A stretch of DNA of 64,000 nucleotides. Origin: Octopus sinensis. Lineage: Eukaryota. This document shows, one piece after another, positions 35,284 to 60,100 of the stretch. The first letter of the stretch is position 1, and each line of letters begins with the position of its first letter. Location of the stretch: NCBI RefSeq assembly GCF_006345805.1, contig NC_043008.1, positions 68,200,001-68,264,000 of the forward strand, in the 5' to 3' direction. Both the position numbers and the translations under genes were made by a program. The notes below the pieces were generated by a model that ran no database searches, had not been told where the DNA came from, and saw only the letters and a list, made by a program, of their open reading frames with translations.

Positions 35284-35730
35284 AATATATGAATATATCA
35301 GCCACTGACCAGTTGTGTTAATCCACCTCCGACAATATCAGCTAACTCTGATGAGCGTAAGGTTACATAATCAGATTGTTACCTAAGTTCATGTCCAGCT
35401 CCAAAAGCCAGATACAGAGGTTTATTTTTGGCTAAGTATTTCTCCTACAGTTGCCTCACCAAAAAATAGCATCAGTGGTACTTCTTCCAAGCACAAATCC
35501 AAACTGCATCTCATCTATGCTAACTCTCTTCCTAATTAATTGAGCTTTGACCCTTTCTGCAACCTTCATCATTTGGTCCAGCAATTTAGTCCCTCTGTAA
35601 TTATTTCTGTCTAGGGCATTGCCCTTTCCTTTGTAGCAGTTGACTATAATGCTGCTACACCAATCATTGGGTATGACTCCCTTGTGGACAACTCAATTAA
35701 TTATAGAGGTGACCAGGTCATGTCCCACTC
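34827..35730 (-). mobile_element. RTE fragments: 3' tail (34827-35245) and RT fragment (35392-35730)
   Basis: (CAT)n followed by ctggatgcccttcct; 35400-35700 minus reads DEMQFGFV..RSTTDAI, L*EKYLAKNKPLYLAF and NYRGTKLLDQMMKV, homologous to 57683..58645. Confidence 0.8.
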
Positions 35731-35765
<35 letters not shown>

Positions 35766-35813
35766 TGTACTCGCATAGCAAGTGATTTGATCTGAGATCG
35801 TGTGCTGAAACGA

Positions 35814-36099
35814 AAACAATTGCAGCGTGGAAGGTGTTTGTAAGCTATTTAAAAAACACACAAAAGCCGTTCGGTTCACTTCAACATTTAAGTTTAATTT
35901 GTCAAAATATTTTCGTCACTAAAATCCGTGACCTGTTCACTGACAAAAATCCGTGCAGCATGGATTTTTGTCAGTGAACAGGTCGCGGATTTTAGCGACG
36001 AAAATATTTTGACAAATTAAACTTAAATGTTGAAGTGAACCGAACGGCTTTTGTGTGTTTTTTAAATAGCTTACAAACACCTTCCACGCTGCAATTGTT

Positions 36100-36100
<1 letters not shown>
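35814..36100. repeat. 287-bp near-perfect palindrome (143-bp arms, 3 mismatches); Penelope pLTR-like fold-back in a (TA)n/(GA)n tract
   Basis: aaacaattgcagcgtgg...ccgtgc a gcatgg...ccacgctgcaattgttt; centre at 35957; mismatches at 35918/35996, 35929/35985 and 35953/35961. Confidence 0.95.
35967..36016 (+). ncRNA. Minimal type-I hammerhead ribozyme with G3-C8 core variant (mirror copy on the minus strand at 35898-35947)
   Basis: Stem I TTTGTCA/TGACAAA, core GTGAACA plus an extra G, stem II GTCGC-ggatttta-GCGAC, GAAA, palindromic ATAT stem-III region, then UU; predicted cut after 36009. Activity untested. Confidence 0.65.
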
Positions 36101-37972: not shown

Positions 37973-38470
37973 TCATCATCATCATCATCATCGTTTAACG
38001 TCCGTTCTCCATGCTAGCATGGGTTGGACGGTTCGACCGGGGTTCTGGGAAGCCAGAAGGCTGCACCAGGCTCCAGTCTAATCTGGCAATGTTTCTACAG
38101 CTGGATGCCCTTCCTAACGCCAACCACTCCGTGAGTGTAGTGGGTGCTTTTTACGTGCCACCTGCACAGGTGCCAGGTGAGGCTGGCAACGGCCACGGTC
38201 AGATTGGTGTATTTTATGTGCCACCGGCACAGAAGCCAGTCGAGGCGGTGCTGGCATCGGCCACGAGTCGGATAGTGCTTTTTACGTACCACCAGACCAG
38301 GGATCCTGGCTGGTTCAATTTGATTTCGCTTGCCCCAACATGTCTTCACAAGCAAAGGGGGTTGGCATGGGTGCCTGTCGTACGGTCGCATTGGAGTATT
38401 TTACGTGCCATAGTGCTTTTTACGTACCACCAGACCAGGGATCCTGGCTGGTTCAATTCGATTTCGATCC
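37973..38470 (-). mobile_element. RTE 3'UTR with an internal 57-bp direct repeat (38272-38328 / 38410-38466)
   Basis: (CAT)n tail then sequence matching 56102-56500; atagtgctttttacgtaccaccagaccagggatcctggctggttcaatt.gatttcg occurs twice. Confidence 0.85.
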
Positions 38471-38472
38471 CC

Positions 38473-39145
38473 GTGTTATAGATAAAATAATTAAGAAAAT
38501 GAAGTCTGAGAAAGCTCCTCGTCCATCAAGAATTTCCTCTGAAATACTTAAAATAGCTGGCAGTATAGAATATGGCCTACTAACTCATATAGTTAATCAG
38601 GTTGTACAGGAAGACATCATACTCAATGATTGGTGTAGCAGTATCATAGTCAACTGTTACAAGGATAAAGGAGGTGCCTTAGAAAAAAATAATTACAGAA
38701 GTATCAAATTACTGACCAGGTTATGAAAGTCACTGAAAAAGTCATACCCCAGTTAATTAGAAAGAGAGTTAACCAAGATAAGATGCGGTTTGGTTTCGTG
38801 CCTAGGAGAATCATTGCTGATGCTCTCTTTATAGTTCAGCACCTACAGGAGAAGTATTTAGCAAAAGGTAAATCACTGTGCTCATGCCTCAATCTCTCAT
38901 CTGTTGACCACTATCTCTCATCTGGTGACCACTACAAAAGCTAGGAGTAAATGAATGGCTAGTGAGAGCTGTTCAAGCCAATGTACAGGAATGCTGTTTG
39001 TAAAGTGAGAGTTAACAATGAGTACAGCCAAGAATTTAATGTGCAGGTAGGAGTTTGTCAGGGTTCAGTTATCAATCCCCTTTTATTTCTTATACTTCTC
39101 CAGGCCATAATGGAAACATTTAAGACTGGTTCTATGCTGATGACC
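38473..39145 (+). mobile_element. RTE RT fragment (frameshifted)
   Basis: IIKKMKSEKAPRPSRISSEILK, DWCSSIIVNCYK, KMRFGFVP and QVGVCQGSVINPLLF. Confidence 0.85.
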
Positions 39146-52766: not shown

Positions 52767-55672
52767 CATCATCATCATCATCATCATCATTTAACGTCCG
52801 CTTTCCAGGCTAGCATGGGTTGGACGGTTCAACTGGGGTCTGGGGAGCCCGAAAGCTGCACCAGTCCAGTCAGATCTGGCAGTGTTTCTACAGCTGGATG
52901 CCCTTCCTAACGCCAACCACTCCGAGAGTGTAGTGGGTGATTTTATGTGCCACTGACACAGGTGCCAGACGAGGCTGGCAAACGGCCACACTTGGATGGT
53001 GTTTTTTTATGTGCCACCGACACAGGTGCCAGACAAGGCTGGCAGACGGCCATTATCGGATGGTGTTTTTATGTGCCACCGACACAGGTGCCAGATGAGG
53101 CTGGCAAACGGCCACGATCGGATGGTGTTTGTTACGTGCCCACAGCACGGAGGCCAGTCGATGCAGTACTGGCTACGGCCACGTTCGGATGGTTTTCTTG
53201 TGTGCCACGTGCCACCGGCACTGGTACCACAAAGATACAAATTCCATTGATGTTCATCTATTTTGATTTGTTTTGATTTTCACTTGCCTCAACAGGTCTT
53301 CACAAGTGTCACAAGAAGGAAGGTAAGCACAGGTGGACTGACTACGTCCCAGGTAAGGGCCACGGGTTATGGCCTGACTAGTCTTGCCAGGTCTTCGGAT
53401 GGTGTTTTTATGTGCCACCGACATAGGTGCCAGATGAGGCTGGCGAACGGCCACGATCGGATGGTGTTTGTTACGTGCCCACAGCACGGAGGCCAGTCGA
53501 TGCGGTACTGGCTACGGCCACGTTCGGATGGTTTTCTTGTGTGCCACCGGCACTGGTACCACAAAGATACAAATTCCATTAATGTTCATCTATTTTGATT
53601 TGTTTTGATTTGATTTGATTTGTTTTGATTTGATTTTGATTTTGATTTTCACTTGCCTCAACAGGCCTTCACAAGTATCACAAGGAGGAAGGTATGCACA
53701 GGTGGACTGACTACGTCCCAGGTAGGGGCCATGGGATATGGCCTGACTAGTCTTGCCAGATCTTCGGATGGTGTTTTTATGTGCCACCGACACAGGTGCT
53801 AGATGAGGCTGGCGAACGGCCACGATCGGATGGTGTTTGTTATGTGCCCACAGCACGATGGCAGTCGATGCGGTACTGACTACGGCCACGTTCGGATGGA
53901 TTTCTTGTGTGCCACAGGCACTGGTACCACAAAGATACAAATTCCATTGATGTTCATCTATTTTGATTTGATTTGATTTTCACTTGCCTCAACAGGTCTT
54001 CACAAGTGTCACAAGAGGAAGGTATGCACAGGTGGACTGACTAGTCTTGCCGGGTCTTCGGAATGTGTTTTTATGTGCCACCGACACAGGTGCCAGATGA
54101 GGATGGCGAACGGCCATGATCAGATGGTGTTTGTTACGTGCCCACAGCACGGAGGCCGGTCGATGCGGAACTGGCTACGGCCACGTTCGGATGGTTTTCT
54201 TGTGTGCCACCGGCACTGGTACCACAAAGATACAAATTCCATTGATGTTCATCTATTTTGATTTGTTTTGATTTGATTTTGATTTTCACTTGCCTCAACA
54301 GGCCTTCACAAGTATCACAAGGAGGAAGGTATGCACAGGTGGACTGACTACGTCCCAGGTAGGGGCCATGGGTTATGGCTAACTAGTCTTGCCGGGTCTT
54401 CGGATGGTGTTTTTATGTGCCAGCGACACAGGTGCTAGATGAGGCTGGCGAACGGCCACGATCGGATGGTGTTTGTTATGTGCCCACAGCACGATGGCCA
54501 GTGATGCGGTACTCACTACGGCCACGTTCGGATGGATTCTTGTGTGCCACCGGCACTGGTACCACAAAGATACAAATTCCATTGATGTTCATCTATTTTG
54601 ATTTGTTTTGATTTTCACTTGCCTCAACAGGTCTTCACAAGTGTCACAAGAAGGAAGGTATGTACAGGTGGACTGACTACGTCCCAGGGAAGGGCCACGG
54701 GTTATGACCTGACTAGTCTTGCCGGGTCTTCGGATGGTGATTTTATGTGCCACCGACACAGGTGCCATATGAGGCTGGCGAACGGCCACGATCGGATGGT
54801 GTTTGTCATGTTCCCACAGCACGGAGGCCAGTCGATGCGGTACTGGCTACAGCCACGTTCGGATGGTTTTCTTGTGTGCCACAGGCACTGGTACCACAAG
54901 GATACAAATTCCATTGATGTTCATCAATTTTGATTTGTTTTGATTGATTTTCACTTGCCTCAGCAGGTCTTCACAAGTGTCACAAGAAGGAAGGTATGCA
55001 CAGGTGGATCGACTACGTCCCAGGTAGGGGCCACGGGATATGGCCTGACTAGTCCTGCCGGGTCCTCTCATGCACAGCACACTTCCATAGGACTCGGTCT
55101 TTAGTCATTTCCTTGGTGAGACCTAAAGTTCGAAGGTCGTGCTTCACCACCTCGTCCCAGGTTTTCCTGGGTCTACCTCTTCCACAGGTTCCCTCAACTG
55201 CTAGGGTGTAGCACTTTTGCACACAACTATCTTCAGCCATTCTCGTCACATGACCATACCAGCGCAGCCGTCTCTCTTGCACACTACAACTGACACTTCT
55301 TAGGTTCAACTTTTCTCTCAAAGTACTTACACTCTGACGATTATGAACACTGACATTACACATCCATCGGAGCATACTGGCTTCATTTCTTGTGAGCTTA
55401 CGCATATCCTCAGCAGTCACGGCCCATGTTTCACTACCATGTAGCATGGCTGTACGTACACACGCATCATATAGTCTGCCTTTTACTCTTAGCGAGAGGC
55501 CTTTTGTCACCAGCAGGGGTAAGAGCTCTCTAAACTTTGCCCAGGCTATTCTTACTCTAGCAGTTACACTTTCAGCACACCCACCCCCGCTACTGACTTG
55601 GTCTCCTAGGTAGCGGAAGCTATCAACTACTTCTAGTTTGTCTCCTTGGAACGTGGTAGAAGTTGGTCTCTG

Positions 55673-55676
<4 letters not shown>
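52766..55676 (-). mobile_element. 5'-truncated RTE LINE with 3' region expanded into six tandem ~335-bp units
   Basis: ORF 55049..55675 (FRYLG...RLRWYGHV...GRGRPRKTW); units start at 53057, 53396, 53765, 54059, 54401 and 54731; (ATG)n tail at 52766-52790. Confidence 0.92.
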
Positions 55677-55708
<32 letters not shown>

Positions 55709-55716
55709 TATATATA

Positions 55717-56088
55717 TACTCTTTTACTTGTTTCAGTCATTTGACTGTGGCTATGCTGGAGCACCACCTCTAGTTGAGCAAATCAACCCCAGGACTTATT
55801 CTTTGTAAGCCTAGTACTTATTCTATCGGTCCCTTTTGCCGAATCGCTAAGTTATGGGGACGTAAACACACCAACATCAGTTGTCAAGCAATGTTGGGGG
55901 GACAAACACAGACACACAAACGTATACAGGCTTCTTTCAGGTTCCATCTACCAAATCCACTCACAAGGCTTTGGTTGGCCTGAGGCTATAGTAGAAAACA
56001 CTTGTCCAGGGTGCCACACAGTGGGACTGAACCTGGAACCATGTGGTTCGTAAGCAAGCTACTTACCACACAGCCACTCCTATGCCTA
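55717..56088 (-). mobile_element. CORE-like tRNA SINE
   Basis: Same family as 51313. Confidence 0.9.
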
Positions 56089-56101
56089 TAGTGAATAGGG
56101 T

Positions 56102-59100
56102 ATCATCATCATCATCATCATTTAGCGTCCGCTTTCCATGCTACATGGGTTGGACGGTTCAACTGGGGTCTGGGAAGCCAGAAGGCTGCACCAGGCCCAG
56201 TCTGATCTGGCAGTGTTTCTACGGCTGGATGCCCTTCCTAACGCCAACCACTCCGTGAGTGTAGTGGGTGCTTTTTACGTGCCACCCGCACAGGTGCCAG
56301 ACGGGGCTGGCAAACGGCCACGGACAGATGGTGCTTTTTACGTGCCACCGGCAAGGGGGCCAGGCGAGGCTGGCAACAGCCACTATCGGATGATGCTTTT
56401 TACATGCCACCAGCATGGAGGCCAGTCGGGGCGGCGCTGGCAATGGCCACGATCGGATGGTTCGCTTACATGTCACCGGTACTGGTATCACAGCTGCAAT
56501 TTCCATTGATGTTGATCAACTTCGATTTTGGTTCTGATTTCTGATATCTGATTTGATTTGATTTGATTTCCACTTGCCTCAACAGGTCTTCACAAGTGGA
56601 GTTTTGTGTCCCAAGAAGGAAAGGTATGCATAAGTTGACTGGCTACATCCCAGGTAGAGGCCACGGGTTATGGTCTCACTAGTCCTGCCGGGTCTTCTCA
56701 CGCACAGCATACTTCCATAGGTCTCGGTCTCTAGTCATTTCCTTGGTGAGACCTAAAGTTCAAAGGTCGTGCTTCACCACCTCGTCCCAGGTTTTCCTGG
56801 GTCTACCTCTTCCACAGGTTCCCTCAACCACTAGGGTGTGGCACTTTTGCACACAATTATCTTCAGCCATTCTCGTCACATGACCATACCAGCGCAAACG
56901 TCTCTCTTGCACACCACAACTGATGCTTCTTAGGTCCAACTTTTCTCTCAAGGTACTTACACTCTGTTGAGTATGAACACTGACATTACACATCCATCGG
57001 AGCATACTGGCTTCATTTCTTGCGAGCTTACGCATATCCTCAGCAGTCACAGCCCATGTTTCACTACCATGTAGCATGGCTGTTCGTAGACATGCATCAT
57101 ACAGTCTGCCTATTACTCTGAGCGAGAGGCCTTTTGTCACCAGCAGGGGTAAGAGCTCTCTAAACTTTGCCCAGGCTATTCTTACTCTAGCAGTTACACT
57201 TTCAGCACTCCCACCCCCACTACTGACTTGGTCACCTAGGTAACGGAAGCTATTAACTACTTCTAGTTTTTCTCCCTGGAATGTGGTGGAAGTTGGTCTC
57301 TGCACATTTTCAGTGTTTATTGCTCCTGAGCATTTGCCACAAACAAAAACTATTTTCCTAGTTAGCCTTCCTTTGACATTGCTGCACCTCTTATGTGTCC
57401 ATAGCTTACACTTGGTGCATCTTATAGAGTTTCTACCTACACCTTTTCTACAGATCGAGCAGGGCCATCTACCTGAGGGTGTTTGTGACTTGTCTACCTT
57501 CCTACTTATTCGGACTTTGGTTTTGGCTAGGTTGACTCCAAGGCCCTTCGATTCTAATCCTTGCTTCCAAACCTGAAACTTCTCCAGTTCTGATAGTGAC
57601 TCCGCAATTAGAGCAAGGTCATCAGCATAGAGGAGCTCCCAGGGGCATCCTGTCTTGAATTCCTCCGTTATTGCCTGGAGGACTATGATAAATAGGAGGG
57701 ACTGTGGACTGAACCTTGGTGGACCCCAACCTCTACCCGAAATTCTTCACTGTACTTGTTGCCAACCCTCACCTTACTAGCAGCATCTCTGTACATGGCT
57801 CGCACAGCTCTCACTAACCATTCATCTATCCCTAGTTTCCTCATTGACCACCAGATAAGGGATCGAGGGACCCTGTCGAAGGCTTTCTCCATGTCAACAA
57901 AAGCCAGGTACAGGGGCTTATCTTTGGCTAGGTATTTCTCCTGCAGCTGTCTTACCAGGAATATAGCATCAGTAATACTTTTCCCTGGCACGAACCCAAA
58001 CTGCATCTCATCTAAGCTAACTCTCTCTCTAATTAGTTGGGCTATAACCCTCTCCGTAACCTTCATTACTTTATCCAGCAGCTTGATACCCCTGTAGTTA
58101 TTTGTATCTAGGGAGTCACCTTTACTTTTGTAGCAGTTGACTATTATGCTGCTACACCAGTCATTGGGTATGACTCCTTCGTGTATCACCTGGTTAACTA
58201 TACGGGTGACTAGGCTATAGCCGATACTACCAGATATTTTTAGCATCTCTGCAGTAATTCCTGATGGGCCTGGGGCTTTCCCTGTCTTTATGCTTGTAAT
58301 TGCCTTTACTAAGGAACTGTCAACTCGGATTGCTGGTCCCTCTGTTGGGTCGACATTCGGCAGACTCTCTTTATCCCATTCATTTTCTTTATTCAGCAAC
58401 CTTTCATAGTGGCGTCTCCAAACCTCTCTCTTTGCATCCTCATTTAGCGCAAGTGAACCATTATCCTTGCGAACACATTTCTCTCCTACCACGTCACGAT
58501 TCTCTCTCACACACTGTCTTGAAACATGAAATACCTCAAGTCTTTCATCCTCACGGTGCAGAACATTGGCAAATTTTTTCTTATCTGCTTCCCCTCTGGC
58601 TAAATACACCTGCCTCCTAGCTTCTCTTCTGGCAGTCTGATACACTTCTCTGCTACCACCGTTCTTTCAGTCCTTCCAAGCCTGTTTCTTTTGTCTAATA
58701 GCCCTGTCAACAATATTGTTCCACCACCACGTTATTTTGGGTCTTGAGGGGCCTTTGCACCAACCACAGATCTGGTCAGTGGCTCTCAGCAGGTTGTCCC
58801 TTAGAGACCTCCAGTTGTCTTCTACCCCATGTTAAGCTATACCTCCTTCTATTTCGTCAAAGGCTTCAAGTAATATGTCTCTAAATCTCTGTCCATTCGC
58901 AGGATTTTTAAGCTTCCAGACCCTTCTTCTCCATGTTGGTCGTCTTCTAGTTGTCCTCTTAGTTCTGATCCTAAAGTCACTAACTACCAGTCTATGTTGT
59001 GGGGTACATTCTTCGCCTGGGAAGGTTTTGGCATTTATAAGCAGCCATCTTTCCCTTTTTCTGGCAAGGATGTAGTCGATTTGGCTAGTATGTCGGCCCG

Positions 59101-59252
59101 ATCGGTAGGTGACCAGGTGGCTTGTAGATTTTCTGAAGTTAGTGTTGCAAACCATAAGACTATTTGCATCGCAGAACTCCAGCAGCCTAGTTCCCTCCTC
59201 AATGCGGGAACCATAACCGTAGCCTCCATGTACGCCATGGAAGCCCCCGGCA
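56102..59252 (-). mobile_element. 5'-truncated RTE LINE: partial APE endonuclease plus RT with internal PHD-type finger; inactivated
   Basis: EN motifs CNTNF and SQIDYIL..QHRLV; RT motifs NYRGIKLL, QFGFVPG, AFVDMEKAFDRVPR, GVHQGS, LLYADD (57618-57629) and FRYLG. Stops at 58832, ~58668 and 56760; 1-nt frameshift at ~57700; (ATG)n tail. Confidence 0.95.
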
Positions 59253-59261
59253 GATATGAGA

Positions 59262-60100
59262 GGCACAGGCATGACCATGTGGTAAGAAGCTTGCTTCCCA
59301 ACCACATGGTTCAGGGTTCAGTTCCACTGCATTGCACCTTGGGCAAGTGTCTTCTATTATAGCCTTGGGACAACCAAAGCCTTGTGAGTGAATTTGGTAG
59401 ATAGAAGCTAAAAGAACCCCATCATATATTTGTATATACATGTATCTATGTGTAAAGCCTTGTGAGTGAATTTGGTAGATAGAAGCTAAAAGAACCCCAT
59501 CATATATTTGTATATACATGTATCTATGTGTGTGTATGTCTTTGTGTCGAAGTTTGTCCCCCGACCATCATTACTTGAGAACTGGTGCTGGTGTGTTTAT
59601 ATCCTTGTAACTTAGCAGTTCAGCAAAAGATAACAACAGATCAATACAGTCGACTGAAATTCCTTTAAGGTGGTACTGAATATGACCACAGACTGAAACA
59701 AGTAAACGATAAAAGATAAAGATATAAAGGTGCAGGAGTGGCTGTGTGGTAAGTAGCTTGCCTACCAACCACATGGCTCTGGGTTCAGTCCCACTGCGTG
59801 GAACCTTGGGCAAGTGTCTTCTTCTATAGCCTCAGTCCGACCAAAGCCTTGTAATGGGATTTGCTAGACGGAAACTGAAAGAAGCCCATCATATATATAT
59901 GTGTGTCTGTGTTTGTTCCCCCACCATTGCTTGACAACCGATGTTGGTGTGTTCACATCCCCATAACTTAGCAGTTCAGTAAAAGAGACCGATAGAATAA
60001 GTACTAGGCTTACAGAGAATAAGTCCTGGGGTTGATTTGTTTGACTAAAGGCAGTGCTCCAGCGTGGCCACAGTCAAATGACCGAAACAAGTAAAAGAAT
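59262..60100 (+). mobile_element. Two tandem CORE-like SINEs (59262-59715 with an exact 78-bp internal duplication 59376-59453/59454-59531; 59728-60100)
   Basis: ggagtggctgtgtggtaag...gggttcagtcccactgcgtggaaccttgggcaagtgtcttc...gaaacaagtaaaagaat. Confidence 0.9.

What the first reader, a model, noticed from the sequence alone, without database searches (positions are those of the whole stretch)
35766..36100. Palindromic element encoding a hammerhead on both strands, with a natural G3-C8 core swap and arm-to-arm covariation
Seen in sequence: the right arm reads TTTGTCA-GTGAACA-G-GTCGC-ggatttta-GCGAC-GAAA-ATAT-T-T-TGACAAA. That is stem I (7 bp), stem II (5 bp), GAAA and a palindromic short stem III in type-I hammerhead order, but the core is GUGAACA instead of CUGANGA. 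Established: C3 and G8 form a tertiary Watson-Crick pair in the active hammerhead and compensatory swaps can rescue cleavage; Penelope-like elements carry minimal hammerheads with palindromic stem III that are proposed to work as dimers. Both C3->G and G8->C are changed here, so the pair is kept. Also seen: two of the only three mismatches between arms (35929/35985, 35918/35996) convert one stem-II G-C pair into A-U, preserving the helix. Inference: a Penelope-derived fold-back element with a non-canonical ribozyme that CUGANGA-based searches would miss. The covariation could instead be two independent CpG deaminations.
Basis: partly seen in the sequence, partly recalled or inferred. Interest (0 to 1): 0.85.

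Follow-up and report, generated by a model that had tools for sequence, protein, structure and literature searches.

The report
Penelope hammerhead with flipped core pair
This palindrome is a head-to-head pair of short fragments of a Penelope-like jumping gene, and the whole family of thousands of copies carries a hammerhead ribozyme motif whose key C-G core pair is flipped to G-C, a likely still self-cleaving natural variant that standard ribozyme searches would miss.

Summary
Observation confirmed; interpretation mostly right. The 143-bp palindrome is one of thousands of copies (4,982 exact core 21-mers) of a Penelope-like retrotransposon (PLE). In long copies the same sequence lies 0.8-1.25 kb downstream of an RT/GIY-YIG ORF (25 of 30) and runs in frame into the next ORF start. 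G3-C8 is the family state, not a private mutation. At the homologous site, sister families carry C3-G8 or U3-A8: 8 of 8 rows pair, in three pair types. The 'arm-to-arm covariation' is CpG decay: 66 of 74 copies with the first change lack the second. A transcript through this copy is predicted to fold as one long hairpin, so this locus is likely silent. Cleavage is untested. Against: a minor G3-G8 branch (about 140 copies) also spread, and only 4 of 94 copy ends lie near the cut site. Extra finding: 5' ends pile up 56-59 nt before the cut, often with a non-templated G, suggesting cap-to-internal-start cDNAs. No natural G3-C8 hammerhead turned up in my searches, but Lünse 2016 could not be read. 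New variant of a known kind.

The parts
35766..35956 (-). Left arm: long-form PLE end fragment (pLTR end with hammerhead, first ~31 codons of the ORF, including the tail)
   Evidence: 97-98% identical to the best dispersed copies; continues in frame into the ORF in L186 and L192
35766..35813 (-). PLE 'tail', present on one arm only; ends about 90 nt into the ORF
   Evidence: 3' ends are bimodal, ORF nt 31-35 (33 of 94) and 90-94 (41 of 94); matches the tail defined in PMC11167929
35954..36100 (+). Right arm: short-form fragment without tail, starting 56 nt before the predicted cut
35967..36016 (+). Type-I minimal hammerhead motif with family-type stem II and G3-C8 core (35974-35980); predicted cut after 36009
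   Evidence: cut site by hammerhead numbering (established knowledge), not measured
35898..35947 (-). Second hammerhead copy; stem II carries two CpG transitions (35929, 35918)
35953..35961 (.). Head-to-head junction with TGC microhomology; 35961 is a CpG transition
   Evidence: a similar junction in L010, L011, L020
35846..35848 (-). Position of the likely ORF start codon (ATA in both arms here, ATG in the family; mirror 36066-36068)
   Evidence: peptide from this ATG aligns from residue 1 with homolog P0023, E = 4e-7
35730..35765 (.). (TA)n(GA)n left flank; (TA)n also flanks the right end from 36101
   Evidence: microsatellite flanks in many copies

Best explanation
The locus is an inverted twin insertion of the terminal ~150-200 nt of a Penelope-like retrotransposon, and the family's hammerhead has a G3-C8 core that is likely a compensated, slowly cleaving form of the C3-G8 pair, while this particular copy is predicted to be silent. 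Shown: family membership, position beside an RT/GIY-YIG ORF, family-wide G3-C8, pairing at 3-8 in sister families, two fixed 3' ends, CpG decay between arms. Inferred: (1) the element protein nicks (TA)n DNA and starts cDNA at two internal sites about 33 and 92 nt into the ORF, giving one short arm and one tailed arm; (2) cDNA runs to the capped RNA 5' end about 59 nt before the cut site, and the two cDNAs join head to head by microhomology; (3) in source elements the hammerhead cleaves weakly, as a dimer through the AAUAUU palindrome or with protein help, and most inserted templates were uncleaved; (4) a transcript through this palindrome forms a long hairpin that masks the ribozyme.
For: Leader downstream of the endonuclease in 25 of 30 best EN copies, 24 with GTGAACA; 1042-aa stop-to-stop frame with YVDD, CX3CxxC linker and YIGET motifs, matching a Pfam-positive PLE at E = 7e-7 (EN) and 8e-6 (RT). 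G3-C8 core in 54 of 67 unbiased arms (G3 64, C8 61) and in 6 of 7 older copies with 80-92% EN identity. With positions 3 and 8 left free, sister families gave C3-G8 and U3-A8; family F6 has C3+G8 in 94 of 100 listed of 157. Pair 3-8 is standard in 8 of 8 rows, UA 4, CG 2, GC 2; whole-structure covariation 0 of 500 shuffles as high. Families F1, F2, F3 fall in one clade, SH-aLRT 98. C3G/G8C partly restores cleavage in the anole PLE hammerhead, which needs protein and is dispensable for insertion in vitro (PMC11167929). 61 of 94 arms have an inverted partner. Full palindrome folds at -250 kcal/mol.
Against: No cleavage data. A G3-G8 branch that cannot pair also spread: 45 of 100 listed of 311 non-C8 copies, about 140 versus about 26 for the like transversion at position 3. 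Only 4 of 94 5' ends lie within 4 nt of the cut. The AAUAUU duplex is marginal (-0.2 kcal/mol) and two monomers cofolded into a different structure. Family F2 has A9C. The eight rows are six related families chosen by a stem II/GAAA descriptor, so the shuffle figure overstates significance. The parent ORF has no Pfam hit by itself.
Confidence: 0.7

Rival explanations
1. Same PLE origin, but the G3-C8 motif is a catalytically dead or near-dead relic kept as a folded protein-binding, promoter or RT signal.
For: G3-G8 branch propagated; few 5' ends at the cut; A9C in sister F2; hammerhead mutants do not affect PAc insertion in vitro.
Against: A double transversion that restores a Watson-Crick pair, three pair types at 3-8, and intact U4-G5-A6, A9, GAAA and A15.1-U16.1 across subfamilies whose loop II changed are better explained by selection on the catalytic fold.
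Confidence: 0.25
2. The palindromes form an independent non-autonomous fold-back element (MITE-like, or a short master RNA) that moves as a unit.
For: Short forms vastly outnumber ORF-bearing ones (depth drops more than 100-fold past the tail end); sharp 5' boundary with an added G.
Against: Arms are asymmetric (tail on one), junctions differ copy to copy, 33 of 94 arms have no inverted partner, and the sequence is contiguous with the PLE ORF and UTR. A short capped or Pol III master RNA for the single arm is not excluded.
Confidence: 0.05
3. The stem-II difference between arms reflects selection on RNA structure at this locus.
For: The double change keeps the helix and occurs in 8 of 74 copies.
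Against: 66 of 74 break the pair; background rate 5 of 100, p = 0.24; four of the eight are one duplicated pair on C27; all three arm mismatches are CpG transitions.
Confidence: 0.03

Closest known systems
Minimal type-I hammerheads in PLE pLTRs (Cervera & de la Peña 2014, PMC4209133; main text parts 1-2 of 4 and supplement file 2 part 2 read)
   Same: U-rich 5' flank, stem I, extra nucleotide before G10.1-C11.1, palindromic stem III, NUH site (U17 common), AU-rich 3' flank; thousands of solo copies; opposite-strand pairs; natural U3-A8 variant.
   Different: Core is GUGAACA; every core in the part of their alignment that I read is CUGA or UUGA, and their descriptor requires cuganga. Stem I is longer (7 bp). 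No octopus entry was found in the searched supplement files (one file not searchable).
PAc (Poseidon of Anolis carolinensis; Frangieh et al. 2024, PMC11167929; parts 1-2 of 4 read)
   Same: Hammerhead at the pLTR/ORF junction, tail equal to the stretch between two RT starts inside the ORF, AT-rich targets, both strands extended, uncleaved RNA as main template. Its engineered C3G/G8C mutant is what this family has naturally.
   Different: PAc has C3-G8 and is Penelope/Poseidon clade; here a CX3CxxC linker is present, the cut site lies upstream of the start codon and the tail is about 58 nt, not 30-40.
Neptune/Nematis-type EN+ PLEs (Craig et al. 2021, PMC8557442; passages read)
   Same: C-terminal GIY-YIG, CX2-5CxxC linker, (TA)n targets, inverted 5'-truncated partner, tail at one end.
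   Different: No named reference protein was available for a tree, so Neptune versus Nematis is not resolved; the ~1 kb microsatellite-rich 3' UTR is not compared with known families.
Natural U3-A8 hammerheads (Perreault et al. 2011, PMC3088659; passages read)
   Same: Natural covariation of the 3-8 pair.
   Different: U3-A8 needs two transitions; G3-C8 needs two transversions and is not mentioned in the passages found.

Membership tests
Hammerhead ribozyme (type I, minimal PLE form) | Stems I and II around the core in type-I order | tested here: met
   pair probabilities 0.7-1.0 in the intact leader of L192; stem II covaries between families
Hammerhead ribozyme (type I, minimal PLE form) | U4 G5 A6, A9, G12 A13 A14, A15.1-U16.1, H17 | tested here: met
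   61-66 of 67 arms keep each position
Hammerhead ribozyme (type I, minimal PLE form) | Literal CUGANGA consensus | tested here: not met
   GUGAACA; no C3-G8 among 100 listed of 170 non-G3 copies
Hammerhead ribozyme (type I, minimal PLE form) | Watson-Crick pair between positions 3 and 8 | tested here: met
   G-C here; C-G and U-A in sister families, 8 of 8 rows; minor G3-G8 branch is an exception
Hammerhead ribozyme (type I, minimal PLE form) | Palindromic stem III able to form a dimer | tested here: inconclusive
   AAUAUU is self-complementary but the duplex scores -0.2 kcal/mol
Hammerhead ribozyme (type I, minimal PLE form) | Site-specific self-cleavage | not testable with these tools
   needs an assay; only assembled contigs, no raw RNA reads, were on offer
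Rfam hammerhead models | Covariance-model match | tested here: inconclusive
   no hammerhead hit at gathering or E <= 10, but canonical-core F6 copies also gave none
EN+ Penelope-like element | Single ORF with RT and C-terminal GIY-YIG linked to the repeat | tested here: met
   RVT_1 in 4 and GIY-YIG in 3 of 20 aligned homologs, none for L176 alone
EN+ Penelope-like element | pLTR overlapping the ORF start, optional tail, inverted 5'-truncated partner | tested here: met
Neptune/Nematis clades | CX2-5CxxC linker between RT and EN | tested here: met
   present in F1, F2, F3; regex found none in the four other-clade proteins
Neptune/Nematis clades | RT phylogeny with named references | not testable with these tools
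   tree held only unnamed homologs; quick tree, careful search unfinished
TIR MITE | Symmetric terminal inverted repeats and constant structure | tested here: not met
   asymmetric arms, variable junctions, solo arms

The most novel reading that the evidence does not exclude
This is a naturally fixed, active G3-C8 hammerhead, completing three Watson-Crick states of the 3-8 pair (C-G, U-A, G-C) within one clade of PLEs in one genome, and not yet in print. The thousands of short insertions record in vivo cDNAs running from two internal starts to the mRNA cap.
Probability: 0.4. Interest if true: 0.7.

Novelty: new variant of a known kind. Interest (0 to 1): 0.52.

Why it matters
It supplies a natural example of a core swap otherwise seen, in what I could read, only as an engineered rescue, and shows that C-G, U-A and G-C all persist at hammerhead positions 3-8 in sister retroelements. 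Searches that fix CUGANGA or YUGANRA miss at least 5,000 motifs in this genome, and PLE families called 'hammerhead-less' deserve a re-scan with 3-8 free. The family, its G3-G8 branch and an 82-nt tandem array make the open question of whether PLE hammerheads need to cleave directly testable. The copy-end statistics independently fit the two-start priming model measured in vitro for PAc.

Tried and rejected
Rfam: no hammerhead hit for this motif or for canonical-core controls, uninformative. Pfam GIY-YIG search of the genome returned other PLE families; none of 30 loci held this repeat. My first descriptors (stem I >= 5, then >= 4) missed the sister hammerheads; relaxed. No C3-G8 subfamily of this family among 100 listed of 170. 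G3-G8 as an evolutionary intermediate: not supported, as 6 of 7 older copies and a 68%-identical copy have G3-C8. Splicing as cause of the 5' boundary: a branch-point/pyrimidine/CAG signal lies exactly there, but no shared exon sequence precedes it (26 different 4-mers in 45 copies); not excluded. Expression: no RNA holder listed on record; only contigs. PDB: no hit for the ORF alone; profile hit an RT at 3e-6. About 20 of 40 wanted upstream/downstream regions of further 5'-complete relatives were examined, in shortened form, so more families may exist. Lünse 2016 (PMC5785218) and Przybilski & Hammann 2007 (PMC1986816) were not held. Earlier findings of this scan: none returned.

Full report
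Observation. The palindrome is real: arms 35814-35956 and 35958-36100, three mismatches. The right arm reads as a type-I minimal hammerhead with core GTGAACA at 35974-35980 and predicted cut after 36009; the left arm is its mirror on the minus strand. Stems I and II are the predicted fold. The left arm carries a further 48 nt (35766-35813). Both ends abut (TA)n.

It is a repeat. The 2.72-Gb genome holds 4,982 exact matches to a core 21-mer and 6,408 to a downstream 22-mer, none for reversed controls. The host is likely an octopus: the nearest named homolog is an Octopus vulgaris protein; this is inference.

Parent element. One of four widely spaced pairs that I fetched (L143) enclosed a GIY-YIG-like frame about 1 kb upstream of the hammerhead. 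Of the 30 best genomic matches to that endonuclease, 25 have the repeat 0.8-1.25 kb downstream in sense (these include the query copy and three identical duplicates); 24 have GTGAACA and one ATGAATA. L176 has a 1042-aa stop-to-stop frame with DKSG, YVDD, CX3CxxC and YIGET motifs. It has no Pfam hit alone, but 4 and 3 of 20 aligned homologs hit RVT_1 and GIY-YIG, and it matches a Pfam-positive PLE in both domains. In L186 and L192 the sequence continues past the tail in frame into the ORF, and that peptide aligns with homolog N-termini. So the window element is the pLTR end plus the first ~31 codons. The linker points to the Neptune/Nematis type as defined in PMC8557442 (passages); the clade is not resolved.

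The 3-8 swap. In 67 unbiased arms with a whole hammerhead, 54 have the exact core; G3 is kept in 64 and C8 in 61. None of 100 listed of 170 non-G3 copies is C3-G8. Of 18 more divergent EN copies fetched, 8 showed the core; of the 7 with 80-92% EN identity, 6 are G3-C8. No change at positions 3 or 8 was among the rows shown for four runs labelled as four organisms (20 rows not shown, contigs only). A descriptor that left 3, 7, 8 and 9 free found hammerheads at the homologous place in other PLE families: F2 (C3-G8, with A9C), F3 (U3-A8), F4 and F5 (U3-A8). F6 has C3 and G8 in 94 of 100 listed of 157 matches and shares stem I and N7 with this family. F1, F2 and F3 fall in one clade (SH-aLRT 98, quick tree). 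On eight rows from six families the 3-8 pair is standard in all, with three types; relatedness and descriptor choice inflate the shuffle statistic.

Against activity. A G3-G8 branch spread: 45 of 100 listed of 311 non-C8 copies, about 140, against about 26 for the like transversion at position 3; it includes 5'-complete copies. Only 4 of 94 5' ends lie within 4 nt of the cut. The stem III duplex is marginal. In PAc, C3G/G8C partly restores cleavage, cleavage needs protein, and insertion does not need cleavage in vitro (PMC11167929, parts 1-2 read). A passage in PMC3884650 reports an engineered G3-C8 variant less active with C17 than G17, data not shown; this family has U17 in 65 of 67 arms, which fits by inference.

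Arm covariation rejected. The family has CG at both sites in 51 of 67 arms. With the G>A change fixed, 8 of 74 copies have the partner C>T; background is 5 of 100 listed of 1,601; p = 0.24. All three arm mismatches are CpG transitions. Both arms share private changes, including ATG to ATA, consistent with one template in one event.

How the palindrome arose. I mapped 94 arms from the first 100 listed matches on contig C1. 61 have an inverted partner. 3' ends fall at ORF nt 31-35 (33) or 90-94 (41), with 5 unmeasured and 15 elsewhere; loose contig ends agree. This matches the two internal RT starts that define the PAc tail. 5' ends pile up: 37 at 56-59 nt before the cut, 50 within 50-60, 6 beyond 63. 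Of 16 ending at -59, 11 are preceded by G, versus 10 of 71 other ends (p = 3e-5), and 0 of 17 long EN-linked copies have G there. I read this as a copied mRNA cap at the start site (recalled precedent from LINE elements; about 60% likely); a splice acceptor or a short master RNA are alternatives. Read-through RNA of this locus is predicted to form one long hairpin (-250 kcal/mol), masking the ribozyme.

Literature. Natural U3-A8 is reported (PMC3088659 passages; PMC4209133 text). Searches for natural G3-C8 and for octopus PLE hammerheads (PMC13282606 has no 'hammerhead') found none. The library lacks most subscription papers; Lünse 2016, with its large PLE hammerhead set (recalled), and its supplements could not be read and may contain such rows.

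Verdict. A new variant of a known kind: confident as a PLE hammerhead motif with a family-wide G3-C8 core (about 0.95), moderately confident that it still cleaves (about 0.7). The window copy itself is an ordinary decaying insertion.

Noticed in passing
L306 (G000:C27:5998150-5999650); similar spacing at C27:6456391-6457164: Head-to-tail array of at least 16 units of 81-84 nt, each a G3-C8 hammerhead with some decay; retrozyme-like, a natural dimer context.
   Followed up: partly
L033:1127-1687: 64-nt tandem array of a partial hammerhead lacking stem III and the 3' strand of stem I.
   Followed up: no
L183:4559, L207, L209, L213, L214, L309: Sister family F2 has CUGAUGC, an A9C core in all copies seen; A9U/A9C also occur as minor forms in F6.
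   Followed up: partly
L194, L196, L198, L202, L203, L342: G3-G8 (non-pairing) branch of the family, about 140 copies by estimate.
   Followed up: partly
L143:1044-1065 (minus); L192:1078-1100: Branch-point, pyrimidine tract and CAG directly before the 5'-end hotspot, resembling the intron end next to helix I in Drosophila virilis Penelope.
   Followed up: partly
L143:1254-1856 and 2064 downstream: The ~1 kb 3' UTR of the parent element is mostly (TACA)n/(CA)n microsatellite, so the element disperses microsatellites.
   Followed up: no
window 55049-59362 (minus) and 38181-38726 (plus): Frameshifted non-LTR retrotransposon reading frames (RT and endonuclease-like, RTE-type by recalled motifs); unrelated to the finding.
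   Followed up: no
L108/L169 and L109: Two listed copies with ATGAATA, i.e. A3-U8, the fourth Watson-Crick state; may be chance double transitions.
   Followed up: no
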